NCBI RefSeq assembly: GCF_004010195.1
Contig: NC_057719.1
Location: 26,042,114-26,062,113 of the forward strand
From: Chiloscyllium plagiosum
Lineage: Eukaryota
Direction of reading: 5' to 3'
Length of the DNA: 20,000 bases
Shown here: positions 1-20,000 of the stretch, one piece after another
Position numbering within the stretch: position 1 is the first letter of the stretch
Layout: every line of letters begins with the position of its first letter
The notes under the pieces: model-generated
What the model saw: the letters and a program-made list of their open reading frames with translations, nothing else
Database searches by the model: none
What the model was told of the DNA's origin: nothing
Made by a program: the position numbers and the translations under genes

Positions 1-1195
1 GAGGAAGGGAAGCAGTGTCGGTCCAATTTCCCTTGTTATTTTCAGTTCCTGGTCCTGAATCACCATGGGCCAAAACTAAGCCAAATAAAACTCAATTTTT
101 TGGGGGCCATTCAGAAACAAAGATTTTAACTGAGCCTTAGGCAAAATACATTTTACATTTCACACTTTTGACAAATAACTTAAGCAGCTGAAAGATTTTT
201 AGTTATTGATATGATAAAGAAAAGAATACACTGACCTGGATAAACATTGGGACATTAAAAATTGTATCAGCGATTTGTTTTGACATTGAAAGTTTTTTTT
301 TTGGTCACATAATTGATGGTTGGTTCCCTTCACAAATTATTTAAAAAGGAACCTTGTGCTTATCCATTGCAGTAAAGGGCAGCATTTTGCCTCAAACACA
401 ATCAATCAAAATAAATACTGAACTGCTGTGGAAATACAAACTAGGAATTTCAAAGAAAAATGCAAAGCAAGCAAAATATTTAGGTTAAACTATCCCGCTG
501 AGTCTTAATTAAGCAGCCTTTGTCCATATCTGCCATTAGATGTTAATTTTCTGTTTATTACGGTTATATTCGACAGTTTCTACGCTTGAATATTATTTTG
601 TTTCAATAAATAAATAGCAATGTTACAAAGGAATATATGTAAAGCATTTGTGATAGATTTAAGAGCTAGTGCAAGATCATGAGGAAGTGCAGTAGATAAA
701 TCACTATCTTAGGCAATCCTTTAGCATCAGGATGACTTGCTTCTACGCCAGTGCAATGGCTGATACATCCAGTGTGTGCTCTGCAGACTGCCACATGTGA
801 GACAAGTGCTTGCAGGGAATAGTTTGCTGGCTTATAGTCACAGCCACACCCCTGTATGTTCCCTCGAACTGTCTCAATGTGCTCAGTGCCTTCCTTCTGG
901 TATGAACCTTCCCTATTTGTATCAGTTCCCAGGTAGGGATACCCATGAATCAATAGAGATGTTTGATTTCTACAGGGATGCTTTTGGGGGCATCCCTGAA
1001 ATGTTTTCTTATCTGTCAGTATCTAGAACAGATTCACTCGAACTTGAATTGCGGCTACCTGGATTGACCTGGGGAAGATGCAGCCTGAAAATTATGTTGA
1101 GTCACTTATTAATCCTTTTAGACTGGTGCTCCAACAGCCATCATCTGAATCAAGGCTGTTAAATGGTCAATGGAACAGACTATTTCAGGTAGGAG

Positions 1196-1398
1196 CTGAA
1201 AATGTGTTGCTGGAAAAGCGTAGCAGGTCAGGCAGCATCCAAGGAGCAGGAGAAAATTCGGGCATAAGCACTTCTTCACGCTTATGCCCGAAACGTCGAT
1301 TCTCCTGTTCCTTGGATGCTGCCTGACCTGCTGCGCTTTTCCAGCAACACATTTTCAGCTCTGATCTCCAGCATCTGCAGTCCTCACTTTCTCTCAAA
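1196..1398. mobile_element. Short Penelope-like (family A) terminal unit arranged as an inverted repeat around a disrupted hammerhead core
   Basis: Arms ~1193-1269 and 1280-1361 are near reverse complements, followed by the PLE 3' end (..tcctcactttctc, 1393). The right arm starts gcttatgcccGAAAcgtcgatt (HHR stem II/III). Flanked by TATTTCAGGTAGGAG (1181-1195) and TACTTCAGGTAGGAG (1399-1413), 14/15 identical. Confidence 0.85.
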
Positions 1399-1572: not shown

Positions 1573-2253
1573 CAGGAGTCGCAGGTAGCTAGGATAGTGA
1601 AGAAGGCGTTTGGTATGCTTTCCTTTATTGGTCAGAGTTGTGAGTACAGGAGTTGGGAGGTTATGTTGCAGCTGTACAGGACATTGGTTAGGCCACTGTT
1701 GGAATATTGTGTGCAATTCTGGTCTCCTTTCTAATGGAAAGATGTTGTGAAATTTGAAAAGAGTTCAGAAAAGATTTACAAGGATGTTGCCAGGGTTGGA
1801 GGATTTGAGCTATAGGAAGAGGCTGAATAGGCTGGGGCTGTTTTCCCTGGAGCGCCAAGGCTGAGGGGTGACCTTATAGAGGTTTACAAAATTATGAGGG
1901 GCATGGATAGGATAAATAGACAAAGTCTTTTCCCTGGGGTTGGGGAGTCCAGAACTAGAGGGCATAGGTTTAGGGTGAGAGGGGAAAGATATAAAAGAGA
2001 CCTAAGGGGCAACTTTTTCATGCAGAGGATGGTATGTGTATGGAATGAGCTGCCAGAGGAAGTGATGGAGGCTGGTACAATTGCAACATTTAAGAGGCAT
2101 TTGGATGGGTTTATGAATAGGAAGGGTTTGGAGGGATATGGGCCGGGTGTTGGCGGGTGGGACTAGATCGGGTTGGGATATCTGGTCAGCATGGACGGGT
2201 TGGACCGAAGAGTCTGTTTCCATGCTGTACATCTCTATGACTCTATGACTCTA
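1573..2253 (+). mobile_element. 5'-truncated CR1-clade LINE (HER1-like), ORF2 C-terminus plus 3'UTR
   Basis: Peptides LYRTLVRPLLEYCVQFWSP and KIMRGMDRINRQSLFP..RTRGHRF..FF.QR.V.VWNELP..FKRHLDGFM, stop at 2166. The tail is (CTCTATGA)2CTCTA at 2233-2253. Internal stops and frameshifts are present. Confidence 0.95.
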
Positions 2254-2697: not shown

Positions 2698-3458
2698 CAG
2701 AAAGTGAGGACTGCAGATGCTAGAGAGTCAGAGTCAAAAAGTATAGCACTGGAAAAACACGGCAGGTCAGGCAGTATCCGAGGAGCAGAAGAGTCGATAT
2801 TTTGGGCATAGGCCTTTCATCAGGAAGGGGGCTGAGAGACAAATACAAGGGTGAGGGTGGGGCTGGGGGTAAGACAGCTGGGATGGCGATAGGAGAATGC
2901 AGATGAGATAGGTCAGTGGGGAGGGTGATTTGATGGGGTGGGGGGTGTACCTAATGAGGGAGTCACAGAGGGAATAGTCTCTGCGGAATGCAGATGGAGA
3001 TGGGGAGGGAAATATATCTCTGACCGTACACTTCCCTCCTCACCTCCATCCAAAGCCCCAAAGGATGTTTTTACAGCCGGAAGAGCTTTTCATGCACATC
3101 CACTCACCTCAACTGTCATGTCCATTGCTCTCGATGTGGTCTCCCCTACATTGGGGAGACAGGACGTCAACTTGTGGAGTGTTTCAGGGAACATCTCTAG
3201 GATACATGCAGCAAATGACCTCACTGCCCTGTGCCTGATCACTTCAAATCCCCCTCCCAGTCCACCACGAACCTCCTCCACCGCCAAATCCAGGCCACCC
3301 AACATCTGGCAGAAGAACATCTCATCTTCTGCCTTGGGACCTTTCAACCACACAGCATCAATGTCAACCTCAGCAGTTTCCAAATCTTCCCTTCCCCACT
3401 TCATCCCAGCCTCGGATACTGCCTGACCTGCTGTGCTTTTCCAACACCACACTCTTCA
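2698..3458. mobile_element. Internally deleted, partly inverted Penelope-like element with GIY-YIG endonuclease remnant
   Basis: The plus arm, read from 3087, gives FSCTSTHLNCHVHCSRCGLPYIGETGRQLVECFREHL*..HF..EEHLIFCLGTFQPHSINV (GIY-YIG C-terminus, with stops). The minus arm (2698-~3020) has the PLE terminus, a degenerate HHR (~2793-2826) and RDIFPSPSPSAFRRDYSLCDSL. TSD is ATCTTTGCACCTCTG (2683-2697) / ATCTTGGCACCTCTG (3459-3473). Confidence 0.9.
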
Positions 3459-3859
3459 ATCTTGGCACCTCTGTCTTAAACCCTTTCTTTAAAGAGACAG
3501 GACAAAATAAACCTCTTAACGCCACACTATCGTCACAAGTGACTGTAGTTTTCAGAAAAAAAGTGGATGAAATGCAAGACAACCCATGCCTGGTCATTCA
3601 AAATGGCATAGAGAGGAATAAACATCAGAAACTGTTCAAAAATTTAAAGAAGCAGAGAAAAGGATTTCATATATTCATATGTTAGTACCACACACCACGA
3701 TTCCAGTTCGTGAGGGCAGACAATTCATTCTTGACCACTTTACGCCATCATCTACACTCAAAATTACCCTCAATGTTTACTGTTATAAAGTGGAATCTTA
3801 CAGACAAATTACAACACTACAGTAGGTCTGAATGTCCAACTGAGCCTCTGAAATCTAAA

Positions 3860-5354: not shown

Positions 5355-6701
5355 CGTACGAATAGCTTCTGTATATAAGCATTCGGAAATTATTCAATTT
5401 CTTCACCCTTTTCTGCTATAAGCCTGTGAATTTTTGCCTGCCTTCAAAAGGAAACACCTAACTTCCTCTGGAGACTTCAGCAGATGCTGCAGCTGAGCCC
5501 AGCGGCTCAGTCTGTGGGCGATTCAGATGTGAACATGTGCTCTCTCGCTCCACAGCCCAGGAATAGACAGCCAGTGGACCTCTTCATCCTGACAGCTTCT
5601 TCCAGCCGAGTGCTCAGGCCATGTGTTTTCAAATCATCTGCTTTCTCTACTGGTTTCTTATTTATATTGTTCAATTTTTGAATAGCTTCACCTCACCCAA
5701 ATCTCTGAGTGATTATGCATGAGAATGCTAATTAATCCTTCCAGTCTTTCCCTCATTTTCTTGATGCCCCTCTTTGTCACAGTACTGCTTGAAGTGGAAA
5801 ATGACATGGAGTATCTTGGAAGGTGCACTGCTCTGAAATTCCTCAATTTCTATTCTACAGAAGCAAGATGCTATAATTACAAGGGGTGGAGTGCGGGGTT
5901 GGGATATGGACTGCTTGCTCCATTGGAGGGGACATCAACCAGTTTTAATTCCCACATGCAATGTTACAGAAGATTGACTTGAATTTATTTGGGAATTAAA
6001 ATTGACAAAGGTGTACAGTAGGCTGCTGATGGCACCTTGCCCAATTTATAATATCAGAAATTGAGATTAGCCCTCTTAATCCTAATAATTTGTCTAGTCT
6101 CCATGCTGTTACATTTTGTCTTATACTAAACAATTGAAATTTTGTTTACAAAACCTCCTGTGACATTGAATTTGATGAAAACAATCTGCATCCCCTTTAC
6201 CTATTCAATTAGTTGCATCTTCAAACACAGAAATGTTTGACAAATATGACTTGCCTTTAAAAAAGTCAGCCCTCATGATCCTTGATTGTTCAACTGAACA
6301 TTCAGTAAATTGAAAGCACACACAAACAATAATCTGTACACTAGCAAATATGTCACTAAAGAACCAAGCATGTCATCATTTAGAGACAGGAAAACAAAAA
6401 CAATAAAAGGATGGAAAAGTAATTGAAATTATTATCAATACATTCCCTCCATTTTCAATGGGCAACAAACCTTTACCATTCAATTGGCCTTTCATTTGGT
6501 AAACGTTTGAATAGTAAGGGCAAAACTAATGAGCAGAGCCCTGTTGAAGTGCTTGGGTAGGGGTGAGCAGAGACTCCCAGCCACATCAGCAATACCGTTA
6601 GATAGTATCCATGATTTGGAGATGCCGGTGTTGGACTGGGGTGTACAAAGTTGAAAATCACACAGCACCAGATCATAGTCCAACAAGTTTAATTGGAAGC
6701 A

Positions 6702-6736
6702 CACTAGCTTTCGGAGCGACGCTCCTTCATCAGGTG
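6702..6736 (-). ncRNA. Minimal type I hammerhead ribozyme (PLE-associated), intact core
   Basis: The minus strand reads CAC-CUGAUGA-A-GGAGC-GUC-GCUCC-GAAA-GCU-A-GUG. This gives stem I CAC/GUG, a 5-bp stem II, palindromic stem III AGCU and a CUA cleavage triplet. Confidence 0.8.
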
Positions 6737-6740
6737 ATAT

Positions 6741-6775
6741 CACCTGATGAAGGAGCATCACTCTGAAAGCTAGCG
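6741..6775 (+). ncRNA. Minimal type I hammerhead motif, partly degenerate
   Basis: CAC-CUGAUGA-A-GGAG-CAUCA-CUCU-GAAA-GCU-A-GCG. The core is intact, stem II has a G-U pair and stem I has an A/C mismatch. Confidence 0.6.
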
Positions 6776-7183
6776 TGCTTCCAATTAAACCTGTTGGACT
6801 ATAACCTGGTGCTGTGTGATTTTTAATGTTAGATAGTATAACTGGTGATGCACTCTGCCATTGATCTTAGACAGGAAATGGTTGAAGCATCTCAGTAACA
6901 CTGAAATGAAGAGGAGATCTGGAGTGGTGTACAGAAAGGTTTGACTGCGATAGAATGAACAACTAGTTTGTAAATGTCTGGAAAATTAAAGCCTTCCATT
7001 GCACATCTTGTAGAACTTCACAACAATGTTGATGTGTTCACAAGATCATTATTAATTTCACATTGGCTTGTCTATGAATATTCAGAATAATTTTTTTTCT
7101 ACTTCTGCTTTAAAATCTATTTCTTGCCCTTTCTCCACTCAAAGTTTAGCTCCAACATGGAGTGCAATTGTGACAATTTCTTT

Positions 7184-7268
7184 GAAGGGCTTTTGCCCGA
7201 AACGTCGATTTTCCTGCTCCTTGGATGCTGCCTGACCTGCTGTGCTTTTCCAGCACCACTCTAATCTA
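7184..7268 (+). mobile_element. Penelope family A terminal fragment beginning in the hammerhead core
   Basis: gaagggcttttgcccGAAAcgtcgattttcctgctccttggatgctgcctgacc.. Possible degenerate TSD at 7154-7170 / 7269-7285 (14/17). Confidence 0.8.
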
Positions 7269-7509
7269 AACATGGGGTGGAACTGCATAAATGCCGAAAA
7301 TCATATAGCTTATGAGCAAAATAGGCATTGCAGAGTACTCATACGCGAACTGTGGACATCAACAGGTTATTTTGTATTGTTTTTGGAAGGAGTGAGGAAT
7401 GTGAAGTGAGTGGTGCTTCACAGTCAAATGTAATCTGGCCTTCTCATGTTGTTCATGCGCATCAAATTCCACTAGGATCTCTGGATGACATTTGGAATGA
7501 TATCCCTGA

Positions 7510-7607
7510 CTGAATCATTGTGTCATTGTGGGTTCAACAGGAAAGCTGTAAATGTAACTGAAAGGTTTGGACTAAGACACTTGATTAAATGCATGCGAAA
7601 TGTGAAC
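7510..7607. repeat. 98-bp segment of the proximal LURAP1L 3'UTR, duplicated at 9038-9135
   Basis: Ungapped direct repeat at offset 1528, about 85/98 identical by hand alignment. Confidence 0.9.
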
Positions 7608-7633
7608 AACATTTTTTTTTATTTTCACATAAT

Positions 7634-8012
7634 TTATCCAAAACAATAATATCCATCATCAAAGTCATCTTTGGATTCTTTATTCATAGATTCACTGTTA
7701 AGTGAATCTGTTGTTACACATTCGTCTGAGAAGGGATCTAGGTCGGAAGGTGTGCAGTCACCTGGCAAGTCGTCAGCCAGCGTGTCCAGGTAACTTCCCA
7801 CTGAGATTTCATCAAGCCCATCACTGCCATCTTGCAGGCTATTCCAGCTGCCTTGGAGTGAAATGCTCTGGCTTTCTGCCAAGCTATAGAGACTGCTCGT
7901 CAAGCTGCTCCCCCTGCTCGCCATGTTGCCTTTCTCCTCTATTATCCACTTGATCGACTCAATACCTTCATTGATGGACAACAACTGATGTATCAATTGC
8001 CCTGAGGCGAGC
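7634..8012 (-). CDS. LURAP1L: Leucine-rich adaptor protein 1-like, terminal coding exon (apparent frameshift near 7991; possibly a pseudogene or assembly error)
   Basis: HQLLSINEGIESIKWIIEEKGNMASRGSSLTSSLYSLAESQSISLQGSWNSLQDGSDGLDEISVGSYLDTLADDLPG..PSDLDPFSD..YYCFG* matches the recalled vertebrate LURAP1L C-terminal half (RQLLVINESIESIKWMIEEK..SRGSSLSGSL..DGSDGLDGISVGSYLDTLADDVPG..YYCFG). ARLRAID at 8012-7992 matches the exon start VNLRATD but is in another frame. TAA is at 7636-7634. Exon 1 was not found in the window. Confidence 0.9.
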
Positions 8013-8408
8013 CGTAATCTGAACAGTGCAACGGCACCTTTTTTCTCTCTCACTGTTCCTTTTCCTTCCACCCTCATTGCTCAATCCAGGGACACTTTCA
8101 CTCAAGAGCTCCTACACCCAGACAGAGAGATGTTAGACCAGCATTGAACCTTGGATCTTCTTGGTCAGCCTGTCTCAGCTACACACTGAATAAATGTACA
8201 GATTCCTGAAGAGAACCCAAGCATCCACAATGAAATACACAGCTGCCATGTTCCAGAAGCAATTTTTAATTTTAATTTTGTTGCAATCCTGTTGGGGTAA
8301 TGCTATTTTCTTTACCCCAGTTACATTTATATAGGCTATAAAAGAACCAAACAATGACAATATGCACCGGTAAACACTTTAATGAAATTTTTGGTTTCTA
8401 CAAATAAG

Positions 8409-8808
8409 TAGAGTCATACAATGATACAGCACAGAAACAGGCCTTTCGGCCCAAATCGTCCATGCTGATCAGGCTAGTCCCTCTAAACCCTTCCTATTCA
8501 TATATCCATCCAGATGCCTTTTAAATACTGTAATTGTACCAGCCCCACCACTACCTCTGGAATTCCATACAAACACCACCCTCTGCGTGAAAAAAAAATT
8601 GCCCCTTAAGTGTCTTTTAATTCTTTCCCCTCTCACTTTAAATCTAAGCCCTCTAGTTTTGGACTTCCCTATCCTGTGGAAAAGACCTTGGCTATTTATG
8701 CCCCTCATGATTTTATAAATCTCTATAAAGGTCACCCATCAGCCTCCTATGCTTCAGGGAAAGAAGTCCCTGACTATCGGGCCTCTCCTAATAACTCAAA
8801 GCTTCCAG
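8409..8808 (-). mobile_element. CR1/HER1-like LINE 3' fragment
   Basis: The minus peptide IEIYKIMRGINSQGLF..KTRGLRFKVRGERIKRHLRGNFF.TQRVVFVWN..FKRHLDGYMNRKGLEG is homologous to the copy at 1573-2253. Confidence 0.92.
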
Positions 8809-9037: not shown

Positions 9038-9135
9038 CTGAATCTTTGTGTCATTGTGGGTATAACAGGATAACTGATGATGTAACAGAAGGGTTTGGAC
9101 TAAGACACTTGATTAGGTGCATGTGAAATGTGAAC
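9038..9135. repeat. Second copy of the LURAP1L 3'UTR segment, in the presumed intron
   Basis: Direct repeat of 7510-7607, about 87% identical. Confidence 0.9.
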
Positions 9136-9267
9136 TACAGTGATTAATTTCCAGGTTCCAATTCATGGGTAGTCTTCTCTAAACCAATCAAAGCTTTTGG
9201 AGCTGCAAAACTTTTGCTCACTAAAAATATATTTGAGTGGATTTTTTCTGAAACAGCCATAAAGTGA

Positions 9268-9600
9268 GAAATCATACAACACCAGGTTATAGTCCAACAG
9301 GTTTATTTGAAATTAGAAACTTACGGAATGTAGCCCCTTCATCAGGTGAAGTGAGAGGGAAGCACACAGAACACAGAATTTATGGGCAGAGAGAGCAAGG
9401 GCAGAGAGATCAAAAGATCATACAAATGGTGTCAGTGTTGAATAATAAATCTCTGCAGGTGACCAGGAATGTTAGTGTGTGTGAGTGTCAACAGCTGAAT
9501 AACAAGTGAAGGGGTGACCTATAATCCAATTAAATGAGGCAGAGAGATAATTACGAAAAATTAAAAGTACGGTGGTGCCGACGACAGACCACATGACTGG
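9268..9600 (-). mobile_element. Penelope family B-related 3' fragment with degenerate hammerhead
   Basis: 9268-9347 aligns with 6654-6736 (aaatca.acaacaccaggttatagtccaacaggttta..ccttcatcaggtga). The GAAA box is mutated to GTAA. The right boundary is approximate. Confidence 0.7.
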
Positions 9601-11044: not shown

Positions 11045-11489
11045 TAGAACCATAAAAAATGACACAGCACAGAAGCAGGCCATTTGGCCCATCGTGTCCA
11101 TGCCAGCCCAAAGAAACCTAGATGCCCTTCAATCCCATCTTCCTGCACATAAACCCTGCTGAGAAACTGCAGGAAGGAAAGGGCTTATGCCCGAAACGTC
11201 GATTCTCCTGTTCCCTGGATGCTGTCTGACCTGCTGCGCTTTTCCAGCAACACATTTCCAGCTCTGATCTCCAGCATCTGCAGACCTCACTTTCTCCTCC
11301 AGGAGCCTTCTCTGTTCCAAGAAAAACAACCTCAACTTCCCCAATTTCTCCTCATGGCAGGAATTCTCCAGCCCTGGCAACATTTTAGTAAATCATCTCT
11401 GCACTCTCTCCAGAGCAATTATGTCCTTTAATGTGGTGACCAATACTGCACACAACACTCCAGTTATAATCTCACCAGTGGCCTATACA
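11045..11489 (-). mobile_element. Older CR1-clade LINE 3' fragment interrupted by a Penelope unit
   Basis: The 3'UTR-like acagcacagaagcaggccatttggcccatcgtgtccatgcc resembles 8426-8467. The minus peptide MLPGLENSCHEEKLGKLRLFFLEQRRL is CR1 ORF2-like. Confidence 0.8.
11180..11299 (+). mobile_element. Penelope family A terminal unit beginning at hammerhead stem II
   Basis: agggcttatgcccGAAAcgtcgattctcc...ctcactttctcc is nearly identical to 1280-1393. Confidence 0.9.
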
Positions 11490-15371: not shown

Positions 15372-15492
15372 GAGGTAAAAACAATGACTGCAGATGCTGG
15401 AAACCAGATTCTGGATTAGTGGTGCTGGAAGAGCACAGCAGTTCAGGCAGCATCCAAGGAGCTTCGAAATCGACGTTTCAGGCAAAAGCCCT
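15372..15492 (-). mobile_element. Penelope family A-related terminal unit starting at hammerhead stem II, inserted in a SINE remnant
   Basis: The minus strand starts agggcttttgcctGAAAcgtcgatt. Perfect 12-bp TSD CACAACCATGGT at 15360-15371 and 15493-15504. The flank (ctggagttacacatagaccaga) resembles the SINE at 12975-13003. Confidence 0.9.
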
Positions 15493-16640: not shown

Positions 16641-17035
16641 GAGGAATCAGCAATTATAATGCCATTGAATGTGACGGGTTAATGATTATGCCAGGCAAAG
16701 TTACACGCCTGCATGTGATTCAGGTCTTGCTGTAATCGAAATGGATTGCTTCAGGATCTATGGAGTCACAGATGGTGCTGAAAAATTGTGCAACCAGCAA
16801 ACGACCCCATCTTTGACTTTATGAAAGGGGGAATGTTATTGATGAAGCAGCTGAAGATAGTTGGGTGTTGAACACCACCCTGAGGAATTCCTTCAGAGAT
16901 GTTCTGTGGATGAGATAACTGACCTTTAGCAAACACAGCCAACTTCCTTTGGTGCTTTGTGTGTTTCCGACGAGTAAAGGGATGCCCCCCTCCCTGATTC
17001 ACATTTACTCCAGCCCCACTAGGATTACTTGATAC

Positions 17036-17192
17036 CATAAACAAAAACAAAAATTGCTGGGAAAAACTCAGCAGGTCTGGCAAGGTCTGTGGAGAAAAAG
17101 CAGAGTCACTATTTCAAGACTAGTGACTTTTCTTCAGAACAATTTCAGTTTGTGTTTCTGATTTCCAGCATCTGCAATTCCTTGTTTTTTAT
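17036..17192. mobile_element. Penelope-like family C terminal unit with short inverted arm and degenerate hammerhead
   Basis: aaattgctgggaaaaactcagcaggtctggca.. resembles the family A terminus. The minus strand ~17140-17105 reads gtt-CTGAAGA-aaagtcactagtctt-GAAA-tagtgac. It continues on the plus strand as tttccagcatctgca. It interrupts the LINE. A related scrap lies at ~9612-9648. Confidence 0.65.
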
Positions 17193-18601: not shown

Positions 18602-18720
18602 ATTGGGTGACACTGAGATGGAACTTCCATTTGACCTTTCAGTTGAATATAGTCATGCACATTTCAGCATTGTCTCTTGTGTTGATGTGCTGGGCTCATT
18701 AAAAGGGGAATATTTGTGGA

Positions 18721-18792
18721 ATTTTCTCTTCCACTTGGTAGTGTCATTGTCCACCAATTTTCACTTCCACTTGGTAGTGTCATTGTCCACCA
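18721..18792 (+). repeat. 36-bp tandem duplication (2 copies)
   Basis: ATTTTC(T/A)CTTCCACTTGGTAGTGTCATTGTCCACCA x2, 35/36 identical. Confidence 0.95.
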
Positions 18793-19104
18793 ACCTTCCT
18801 GATTGAATATGAAATATTGATCTGATTCCTTGGTTGTGGGAACCACTCAGCTTTGTCGATTGCATGCAGCTTCCTCTGTTTAATATGCAAGTAATTCTAT
18901 GTTGGAGCTGCACAAGTTGGCACCTCATTTTCAGGTATGCCTGTTGCTGCCAATGACATATTCCAAACTCATTTTCTATGAGGTTGATCTTCTACCTGAT
19001 GGTAAAATGACAGATATGCCTAACCATGAGGTTGCAAATTGTAGTTGAATATAATTCCAATGTTCCTCATGGATGCCTGTTTTTGTGTTGCTAAACCTGC
19101 TCTA

Positions 19105-19291
19105 AGAGAAAGTGAGGATTGTAGAAGCTGGAGATCAGAGATGAGAGTGTGGTGCTGGAAAAGCGCAGCAGGTCAGGCAGCATCTGAGGAGCAGGAAAAT
19201 CGACATTTGGGCATAAGGCTTATGCCTGAAAATTCTATTCTCTTGCTCCTCAGATGCTGCCTGACCTACTGTGCTTTTCCAGCACCACATT
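19105..19291. mobile_element. Short Penelope family A unit, inverted repeat joined inside hammerhead stem II
   Basis: Arms ~19148-19217 and 19218-19289 meet at gggcataag|gcttatgcct. Perfect 14-bp TSD CTAAACCTGCTCTA at 19091-19104 and 19292-19305. Confidence 0.9.
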
Positions 19292-19723
19292 CTAAACCTG
19301 CTCTAGATCTATCTCATTTATTTGGTGCAGGGTGTCCTCAATGCAAAGATGGGATTGTGCAGTCCTACTAATATTGTCCTGGGCACATATATTTGTGACA
19401 CATAGATTGGTAAGGCCAAGGTTTAATAGCTTTTCCCTCTTAGTTTTATCAGAGTTTGGTCAGCGGTGCTTTGTCCAAGCCTTAGTGCTACACATTGAAG
19501 GTTTTTAGAGTATTATGTTCCCATGCAATCCTCTGTAGTTCTCCTATATGATTTTCAACATTGAGGGTAGTAGCAATAAATATGCAGCAAGTTTTCTTGC
19601 CCAGAGTTGATCTGACGCTTTGAGACTCCATGGAATCTGGAGTCAATATTGAGGAGTCCTAGAGTCACTGTGTCCTGAGTGCTTTTACAGTGGCAACACC
19701 ACCAGTAGGATATTTCAGCTTTA

Positions 19724-20000
19724 AGTTGAAACTTTATTGCTGGAACAGCACAGCAGGTCAGGCAGCATCCAGGGAACAGGAGATTCGACGTTTCGGGCAC
19801 AGGCCCTTCTTCAGGAATGAGCAGAGAGTGTTCAGCAGGAGAAGATAAAAGGTAGGGAGGAGGGACTTGGAGGAGGGGCGGTGGAAATGTGATAGGTGGA
19901 AAGAGGTCAAGGTGAGGGTGATAGGTCGAAGTAGGATGGAGGCGGAGAGGTCAAGAAGAAGACTACAGGTCAGGAAGGCAGTGCCGGGCTGGAGGGATTC
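19724..20000 (-). mobile_element. Penelope family A element 3' region, running off the window end
   Basis: The terminus ttgctggaacagcacagcaggtcaggcagcatcc, an intact HHR and a purine-rich (plus strand) UTR, as at 2820-2930. Confidence 0.88.
19783..19818 (-). ncRNA. Minimal type I hammerhead ribozyme (PLE-associated), intact
   Basis: The minus strand reads AUUC-CUGAAGA-A-GGGC-CUGU-GCCC-GAAA-CGU-C-GAAU. This gives a 4-bp stem I, a 4-bp stem II, palindromic stem III ACGU and a GUC cleavage triplet. Confidence 0.85.

What the first reader, a model, noticed from the sequence alone, without database searches (positions are those of the whole stretch)
7968..8012. Apparent frameshifting 11-nt deletion at the start of the LURAP1L terminal exon
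Seen: the minus strand GCT CGC CTC AGG GCA ATT GAT A CAT CAG TTG TTG gives ARLRAID in one frame, which stops at TGA 7970-7968, and HQLLSINEG.. in another. Recalled orthologues read VNLRATD-VRLM-RQLL (LURAP1L) and AYLRAID-VKIL-QQL (LURAP1), so 11 of the 12 nt for four residues are missing. Inference: loss between two TGAT repeats (atTGAT..cTGATa). The well-preserved downstream frame suggests recent pseudogenisation, a null allele, a duplicate copy or an assembly error. LURAP1L is an MRCK/LIMK adaptor.
Basis: partly seen in the sequence, partly recalled or inferred. Interest (0 to 1): 0.7.

Follow-up and report, generated by a model that had tools for sequence, protein, structure and literature searches.

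The report
Frameshift in shark LURAP1L retrocopy
The 11-base loss is in this sequence, but it sits in a spare, intron-less copy of the shark LURAP1L gene, likely pasted back from an mRNA that lacked the start-codon exon, while the working gene is intact, so this is an ordinary pseudogene.

Summary
On the minus strand, 8079-7612 is a 468-nt processed copy. It has 67 nt of an upstream non-coding LURAP1L exon, joined exactly at that exon's GT donor to the first base of the last exon, then 17 nt of 3' UTR and a short A-run. The ATG-bearing exon is absent and there is no acceptor AG.

Sequencing runs show a second, intact locus. A 4,244-nt contig joins the coding exon to this exon with the 11 nt present and a different 3' UTR. 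All 6 raw RNA reads fit that parent where informative. The insertion is shared with a related organism, and its drift from the parent (7 replacement, 3 silent) is compatible with neutrality.

None of 7 contig runs shows the deletion, and contigs tied to this copy's flank carry the missing letters. The deletion is therefore a rare allele (about 70%) or an assembly error (about 30%). It puts an upstream ATG in frame (147 codons), with no sign of use. The scan noted other retrocopies in this genome, none of LURAP1L. Ordinary.

The parts
7612..8079 (-). Processed (retro) copy of a LURAP1L transcript, 468 nt, 5'-truncated
   Evidence: similarity to other loci starts at 8079 and ends at 7617; exact splice join at 8013/8012
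8013..8079 (-). 3' 67 nt of an upstream non-coding LURAP1L exon; at its source locus it is followed by a GT donor
   Evidence: Contigs match 8012-8079 with 3 differences and continue otherwise on both sides; translation matches the N-terminal extension of whale-shark model P0244 (tblastn E 1.2e-5 against the window)
7634..8012 (-). Copy of the coding part of the last LURAP1L exon, with stop
   Evidence: 94-96% identity over 118 aa to hemiscylliid proteins; Pfam PF14854
7991..7992 (-). Site of the 11-nt loss between two AATTGAT repeats, plus one changed base at 7991
   Evidence: tables 3, 4, 7
7617..7633 (-). First 17 nt of the parent's 3' UTR, ending in an A-rich stretch
   Evidence: Parent-type contigs diverge at 7617
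7612..7620 (-). A9 run, 5 A's beyond what the parent holds; likely a tail remnant or priming site
   Evidence: and the loose end before 7617
7634..8077 (-). 147-codon ATG-started ORF that exists only because of the deletion (29 new codons from UTR and shifted frame, then the LURAP C-terminal part)
   Evidence: Pfam LURAP profile positions 29-117
7510..7611 (.). 102-nt stretch right after the A-run that repeats window 9038-9139 at 86%; not a plain target-site duplication

Best explanation
The window holds an intron-less, 5'-truncated copy of LURAP1L, likely made by reverse transcription of a minor mRNA in which an upstream non-coding exon was spliced straight to the last exon, and the 11-nt loss likely arose later in this dead copy. 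SHOWN: the join at 8013/8012 falls exactly between a donor site and the start of the last exon; the ATG exon is missing; an intact spliced parent sequence exists; the insertion is shared with organism B; the deletion is seen in none of the 7 contig runs laid. INFERRED: a LINE-type reverse transcriptase primed at the A-rich stretch 17 nt after the stop codon and stopped after about 465 nt; insertion came before A and B split; the copy drifted neutrally; slippage or microhomology repair between two AATTGAT repeats removed 11 nt and changed one base in one haplotype (about 70%), or the assembly made that change (about 30%). The LURAP1L gene is unaffected.
For: (1): contigs of 2,584, 2,905 and 1,255 nt (X1, X2, X3) match only 8012-8079; read on the minus strand they continue ACG then GTAAGG, a donor, where the window enters the last exon. 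(2): that segment, and the letters upstream of it at the source locus (hand-translated AATQFVGEKP), match the N-terminal extension of whale-shark model P0244, which runs on into the ATG exon. (3): X15, 4,244 nt, aligns 7617-8013 with the 11 nt; its loose end behind 8013 translates by hand to TKIQILKRDM, the end of the coding exon in P0241; its 3' side differs from the window below 7617. (4): the non-window alleles at 7662, 7685, 7722, 7863+7864 and 7921 account for all 5 of 118 residues in which the window differs from intact P0241; both allele sets appear side by side at 7692-7802 in X1, X2, X3, X6. (5): raw RNA reads of X21 show parent letters in 3 of 3 (7662, 7685, 7745, 7772), 4 of 4 (7722), 1 of 1 (7863/4). 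(6): X10 (organism B) contigs bridge both outer junctions (7999-8300, 7500-7654). (7): 7 replacement and 3 silent differences against 80% replacement sites, P 0.32. (8) No trace of the ATG exon in the 20-kb window.
Against: No target-site duplication: the longest shared word between the flanks is 7 nt and lies away from the junctions. The tail is only 5 A's beyond the parent. Only one splice junction is crossed. The parent's own acceptor and its genomic position were not seen (no genome held). The 8013-8079 exon is not listed within X15's main contig, so its place in the gene rests on one automatic whale-shark model. The link between this copy's flank and the 11 nt rests on contig ends with 29 letters on the short side, under the tool's 31-letter rule for bridging. 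Ten changes give a weak test of selection (pN/pS 0.58). No raw read covers 7991, and contigs drop rare variants.
Confidence: 0.9

Rival explanations
1. This is the LURAP1L gene itself, recently pseudogenised or carrying a null allele.
For: Frameshift in a conserved motif; downstream frame open and 96% like the nearest protein.
Against: No acceptor and a purine-rich upstream; upstream DNA is a copy of another LURAP1L exon; a spliced contig with the 11 nt and another 3' UTR exists; two allele sets in the same DNA samples; intact 198-aa proteins are on record for the closest named species.
Confidence: 0.02
2. Retrocopy as above, but the 11-nt loss is an assembly consensus error rather than a real allele (sub-rival, concerns the deletion only).
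For: Seen in 0 of 7 contig runs (5 samples of organism A, 2 labelled B); flank-linked contigs of X1, X2, X3, X6 carry 8 of the missing letters; the loss is coupled to a base change; the window has another private letter at 7543.
Against: The window is otherwise locally exact (0 differences in 309, 97 and 111 letters against X1); the loss sits between 7-nt direct repeats, as real slippage or microhomology deletions do (general knowledge); five samples cannot exclude a rare allele.
Confidence: 0.3
3. The copy came from the full mRNA and lost the ATG exon afterwards or during reverse transcription (template jump), or arose by DNA rearrangement.
For: No raw read showing the direct join was seen; X15's main contig has the coding exon in place.
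Against: Both ends of the missing part fall exactly on splice sites that share only 1 nt (G). X6 record 10 (8006-8079) carries parent-type letters and parent upstream sequence yet runs 7 letters into the last exon, which suggests the same join exists outside this copy (short overlap, run of unknown kind).
Confidence: 0.06
4. The copy is a young functional retrogene, and the deletion creates its 147-codon reading frame.
For: The deletion brings ATG 8077 into frame with the LURAP C-terminal part; no stop in 118 codons.
Against: Deletion absent from the other samples; 0 of 6 RNA reads show window-type letters where informative; the first 28 positions of the LURAP profile are unmatched; an open frame is expected at 3% drift.
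Confidence: 0.03

Closest known systems
Processed pseudogenes (retrocopies) of vertebrates (PMC5470649, passages; PMC13320880, passages)
   Same: Intron-less copy across a splice junction, 5' truncation, A-rich 3' end, decay; most vertebrate retrocopies (about 45-90%) lack intact ORFs per PMC13320880.
   Different: No target-site duplication found; the 3' UTR is cut after 17 nt rather than complete; the template lacked the start-codon exon, so it was crippled from the start.
Retrocopies as records of splice variants (Shemesh et al. 2006, PMC1360558; title seen only in reference lists; content recalled)
   Same: The copy preserves an exon join that differs from the main mRNA.
   Different: Shark rather than human; a single case.
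LURAP1L proteins of hemiscylliid sharks (P0241, P0242, P0243, P0121; Pfam PF14854 LURAP)
   Same: 94-96% identical over the last 118 residues.
   Different: Lacks the exon for residues 1-69, has the frameshift, and has no acceptor or full 3' UTR.

Membership tests
Processed pseudogene (retrocopy) | Crosses an exon-exon junction of the parent with no intron | tested here: met
   Join at 8013/8012 between a GT donor and the last-exon start; one junction only
Processed pseudogene (retrocopy) | Intact parent gene at another locus | tested here: met
   Spliced 4,244-nt contig, parent exon-plus-intron contigs, two allele sets per sample; genomic position not seen
Processed pseudogene (retrocopy) | Poly(A) remnant at the 3' end | tested here: inconclusive
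   A9 at 7620-7612, only 5 A's beyond the parent's A-rich stretch
Processed pseudogene (retrocopy) | Disabled or unconstrained coding sequence | tested here: met
   ATG exon missing; neutrality not rejected, P 0.32 on 10 changes
L1-type (TPRT) retrocopy | Short target-site duplication at both junctions | tested here: not met
   No shared word of 5 nt or more at the junctions; the mobilising element is therefore not assigned
L1-type (TPRT) retrocopy | 5' truncation | tested here: met
   Match to the source exon stops at 8079, while the source continues in sequence that still matches P0244
Unitary pseudogene (gene loss) | No functional copy left in the genome | tested here: not met
   X15, X7, X21
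Unprocessed (duplicated) pseudogene | Keeps parent intron sequence and acceptor | tested here: not met
   No AG before 8012; flanks differ from parent-type contigs on both sides
Functional retrogene | Expressed, with a fixed ORF under purifying selection | tested here: inconclusive
   0 of 6 RNA reads window-type, too few to exclude expression; ORF-making deletion not seen in other samples

The most novel reading that the evidence does not exclude
The deletion is a real segregating allele that turns a dead retrocopy into a new chimeric gene: it fuses a short upstream ORF from the 5' UTR exon to the LURAP C-terminal part (147 codons), and the copy is transcribed and translated in carriers, a retrogene caught at birth by a frameshift that gains rather than loses a frame.
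Probability: 0.03. Interest if true: 0.55.

Novelty: new member of a known kind. Interest (0 to 1): 0.14.

Why it matters
It removes a false signal of gene loss: LURAP1L is intact in this shark lineage, and gene-loss screens or read mapping could be misled by this 97%-identical copy. As a small extra, the copy records a LURAP1L splice form that lacks the start-codon exon. No open question is made testable by it.

Tried and rejected
Whole-genome search for a second copy: no genome is held for this window, so the parent was inferred from reads. An early idea that the source exon is an internal cassette exon (an AG lies 9 nt above the truncation point) was dropped, because the match to P0244 continues across that AG. 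An apparent gap-free alignment in the HQLL frame (RLRLASGQLI against RLRAIDVKLM) is chance: reads give the 11 nt. One search compared mainly the wrong frame with P0244 (E 0.006); repeated properly. The 102-nt repeat as a long target-site duplication: it does not abut the 5' end (958 nt away), and 14 differences in 102 exceed twice the copy-parent divergence (P 0.003). Contig depths in X3 and X6 are higher on window-type exon letters than on the flanks, but the run kind is unknown and contig depth cannot rank parts, so this is not used. X7 has no listed contig over this copy's 8013-8051 part: no inference. No TYRP1 or other host exon was found in the window (12 other long ORFs scanned, none passing a Pfam cut-off). 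Literature: LURAP1L + shark, 2 irrelevant papers; LRAP35b + MRCK, 0; retrocopies + bamboo shark, 0; retrocopies + skipped exon terms, 0; seen as listings. No folding or complex jobs were run, as none bore on the question. Supplementary Table 13 of PMC13320880 (retrocopy counts) was not looked at.

Full report
Observation. On the minus strand the window reads ARLRAID at 8012-7992 and stops at TGA 7970-7968. A second frame gives HQLLSINEG...YYCFG to a stop at 7636-7634. The second part is LURAP1L: 94% to a Chiloscyllium punctatum protein and 76-87% to ten other sharks and rays, 96% to the C. plagiosum record P0241, Pfam PF14854 at E 1e-38. All 12 cartilaginous-fish proteins have four residues between D and HQLL. 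Of 244 fetched homologues 231 show the same spacing and 13 give no motif match. The loss is real in the window.

What the read sets show at the site. I laid 8 of the 24 runs listed: X1, X2 (study P1), X3, X6, X7 (P2), X10 (P4), X15 (P6) as contigs, and X21 as raw RNA reads. Six of the 7 contig runs list 11 letters put in behind 7991 at their whole depth there. X10 shows the same letters as loose ends. With them the frame reads AIDVKLMHQLL, as in P0241. The lost stretch lies between two AATTGAT repeats. The window also has ATA where the runs have ATG (7991). No single clean deletion gives the window's letters (prefix 9 plus suffix 6 of 16, by hand), so it is a deletion plus one changed base.

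The locus is not the gene. There is no AG in front of 8012, and the 40 nt upstream are 37.5% pyrimidine. Instead, 8012-8079 matches separate long contigs (2,584, 2,905, 1,255 and 1,381 nt in X1, X2, X3, X7) with 3 differences. On the minus strand these continue ACG then GTAAGG, a splice donor, at the very base where the window enters the last exon. The segment belongs to LURAP1L: it matches the N-terminal extension of the whale-shark model P0244 (tblastn E 1.2e-5 against the window), and the source contigs go on upstream in letters that translate by hand to AATQFVGEKP against AATELAGEKP in P0244. In P0244 this stretch runs on into the ATG exon. The window thus joins an upstream non-coding exon directly to the last exon. 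It has no trace of the exon for residues 1-69.

At the other end, parent-type contigs leave the window's sequence at 7617, 17 nt after the stop, inside an A-rich stretch. The window has 5 more A's and then unrelated DNA. A splice join, 5' truncation and an A-rich end are the marks of a retrocopy (PMC5470649, passages). A target-site duplication, also named there, was not found.

The parent is intact. X15 (RNA by guess; labelled organism B, but with the same 10 listed letters as X7 of organism A) has a 4,244-nt contig that aligns over 7617-8013 with the 11 nt. Its loose end translates by hand to TKIQILKRDM, the end of the coding exon in P0241. The non-window letters at 7662, 7685, 7722, 7863 with 7864, and 7921 account for all 5 of 118 residues in which the window differs from P0241 (the double change read by hand). 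Both allele sets stand side by side at 7692-7802 in X1, X2, X3 and X6. In X21, about 2 in 100 of the run was read and 6 reads were laid. They show parent letters in 3 of 3 reads at 7662, 7685, 7745 and 7772, 4 of 4 at 7722 and 1 of 1 at 7863/7864. None covers 7991. Six reads cannot show that the copy is silent.

Age and constraint. X10 (organism B; 10 differences in 302 letters at 7999-8300) has contigs across both outer junctions, so the insertion predates the split of A and B. Copy and parent differ at about 14 of 463 letters (3%). In the coding part 7 of the 10 listed changes are replacements, against 80% replacement sites: pN/pS 0.58, P 0.32 under neutrality. This is compatible with drift, but the test is weak. 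One of X15's 11 differing letters is not listed in the table and was not counted.

Is the deletion real? In X1, X2, X3 and X6 the contig tied to this copy's flank runs through the join and on into 8 of the 11 letters. In X1 and X2 the 11 letters also go with the window's letter at 7982, not the parent's. So the copy usually has the 11 nt, and the loss and the change at 7991 are private to the window. Two caveats apply: the short side has 29 letters, under the tool's 31-letter rule for bridging, and contigs drop rare variants. The window is otherwise locally exact (0 differences in 309, 97 and 111 letters against X1). I put a real rare allele, made by slippage or microhomology repair, at about 70% and an assembly error at about 30%. 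This split is a judgement, not a computed value.

Template. Both ends of the missing part fall on splice sites that share one base, so a minor mRNA without the ATG exon is the likely template. X6 record 10 has parent-type letters and parent upstream sequence yet runs 7 letters into the last exon; X10 record 15 (7999-8041) may be similar. These point to the same join in present-day RNA or in a second copy. The overlaps are short and the run kinds uncertain. Against a simple three-exon model, the upstream exon is not listed within X15's main contig, so it is probably an alternative first exon. Its place rests on the automatic whale-shark model.

A curiosity. With the 11 nt present, the ATG at 8077 would open a short frame that stops inside the repeat (by hand). 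The deletion puts that ATG in frame with the LURAP C-terminal part, 147 codons, matching Pfam profile positions 29-117 of 118. Nothing shows that it is used.

Comparison and novelty. It works like, and is a member of, the processed pseudogenes. It is not assigned to L1, because the target-site test failed. It is not a unitary or unprocessed pseudogene. PMC13320880 (passages) finds retrocopies in all 579 vertebrate assemblies, most without intact ORFs. That retrocopies record splice variants is known (Shemesh 2006; title only). My searches found no paper on this copy. The scan has noted other retrocopies in this genome, none of LURAP1L. On function, the only source seen is a reference title that assigns the MRCK-LIMK1 adaptor role to LRAP25 (PMC12542016, passages); I did not confirm it for LURAP1L.

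Verdict: observation confirmed, interpretation partly supported, new member of a known kind, interest 0.14.

Noticed in passing
window 7510-7611 and 9038-9139: A 102-nt direct repeat at 86% identity, 1,528 nt apart; one copy starts right after the retrocopy's A-run. It looks older than the insertion (P 0.003) and does not abut the 5' end. Unexplained.
   Followed up: partly
window 6651-6826: Fold-back with 88-nt arms, 91% complementary, no spacer; -80 kcal/mol as DNA, z -20. The arm is related to a dispersed repeat at 9261-9349; probably two head-to-head repeat copies.
   Followed up: partly
X6 record 10 (8006-8079) and X10 record 15 (7999-8041): The join of upstream exon and last exon appears with letters that differ from this copy: present-day skipped mRNA or a second, longer retrocopy.
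   Followed up: no
window 7722: The copy has E where both Chiloscyllium parent proteins have G; Hemiscyllium, Rhincodon and Stegostoma have E. It may keep the ancestral state and date the insertion before those two species split, or be a back-change.
   Followed up: no
run X15: Labelled organism B but carries the same listed parent letters as organism A's X7, unlike X10; the label may be off.
   Followed up: no
window 1831-2166 and 8469-8738: Two related fragments in opposite orientation (I3, I16, I24) that look like 3' ends of a CR1/L2-type LINE (recalled; no Pfam hit).
   Followed up: no
window 1181-1393, 2720-2826, 3410-3490, 7184-7302, 11179-11305, 15396-15492, 19097-19331, 19711-19817: Many copies of one short dispersed repeat, some as close inverted pairs (1193-1361, 19144-19293).
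   Followed up: no
window 16769-17113 (-): Faint reverse-transcriptase hit (RVT_1, E 0.004, below cut-off); probably a decayed retroelement piece.
   Followed up: no
window 18720-18793: 36-nt tandem duplication, 97% identical.
   Followed up: no
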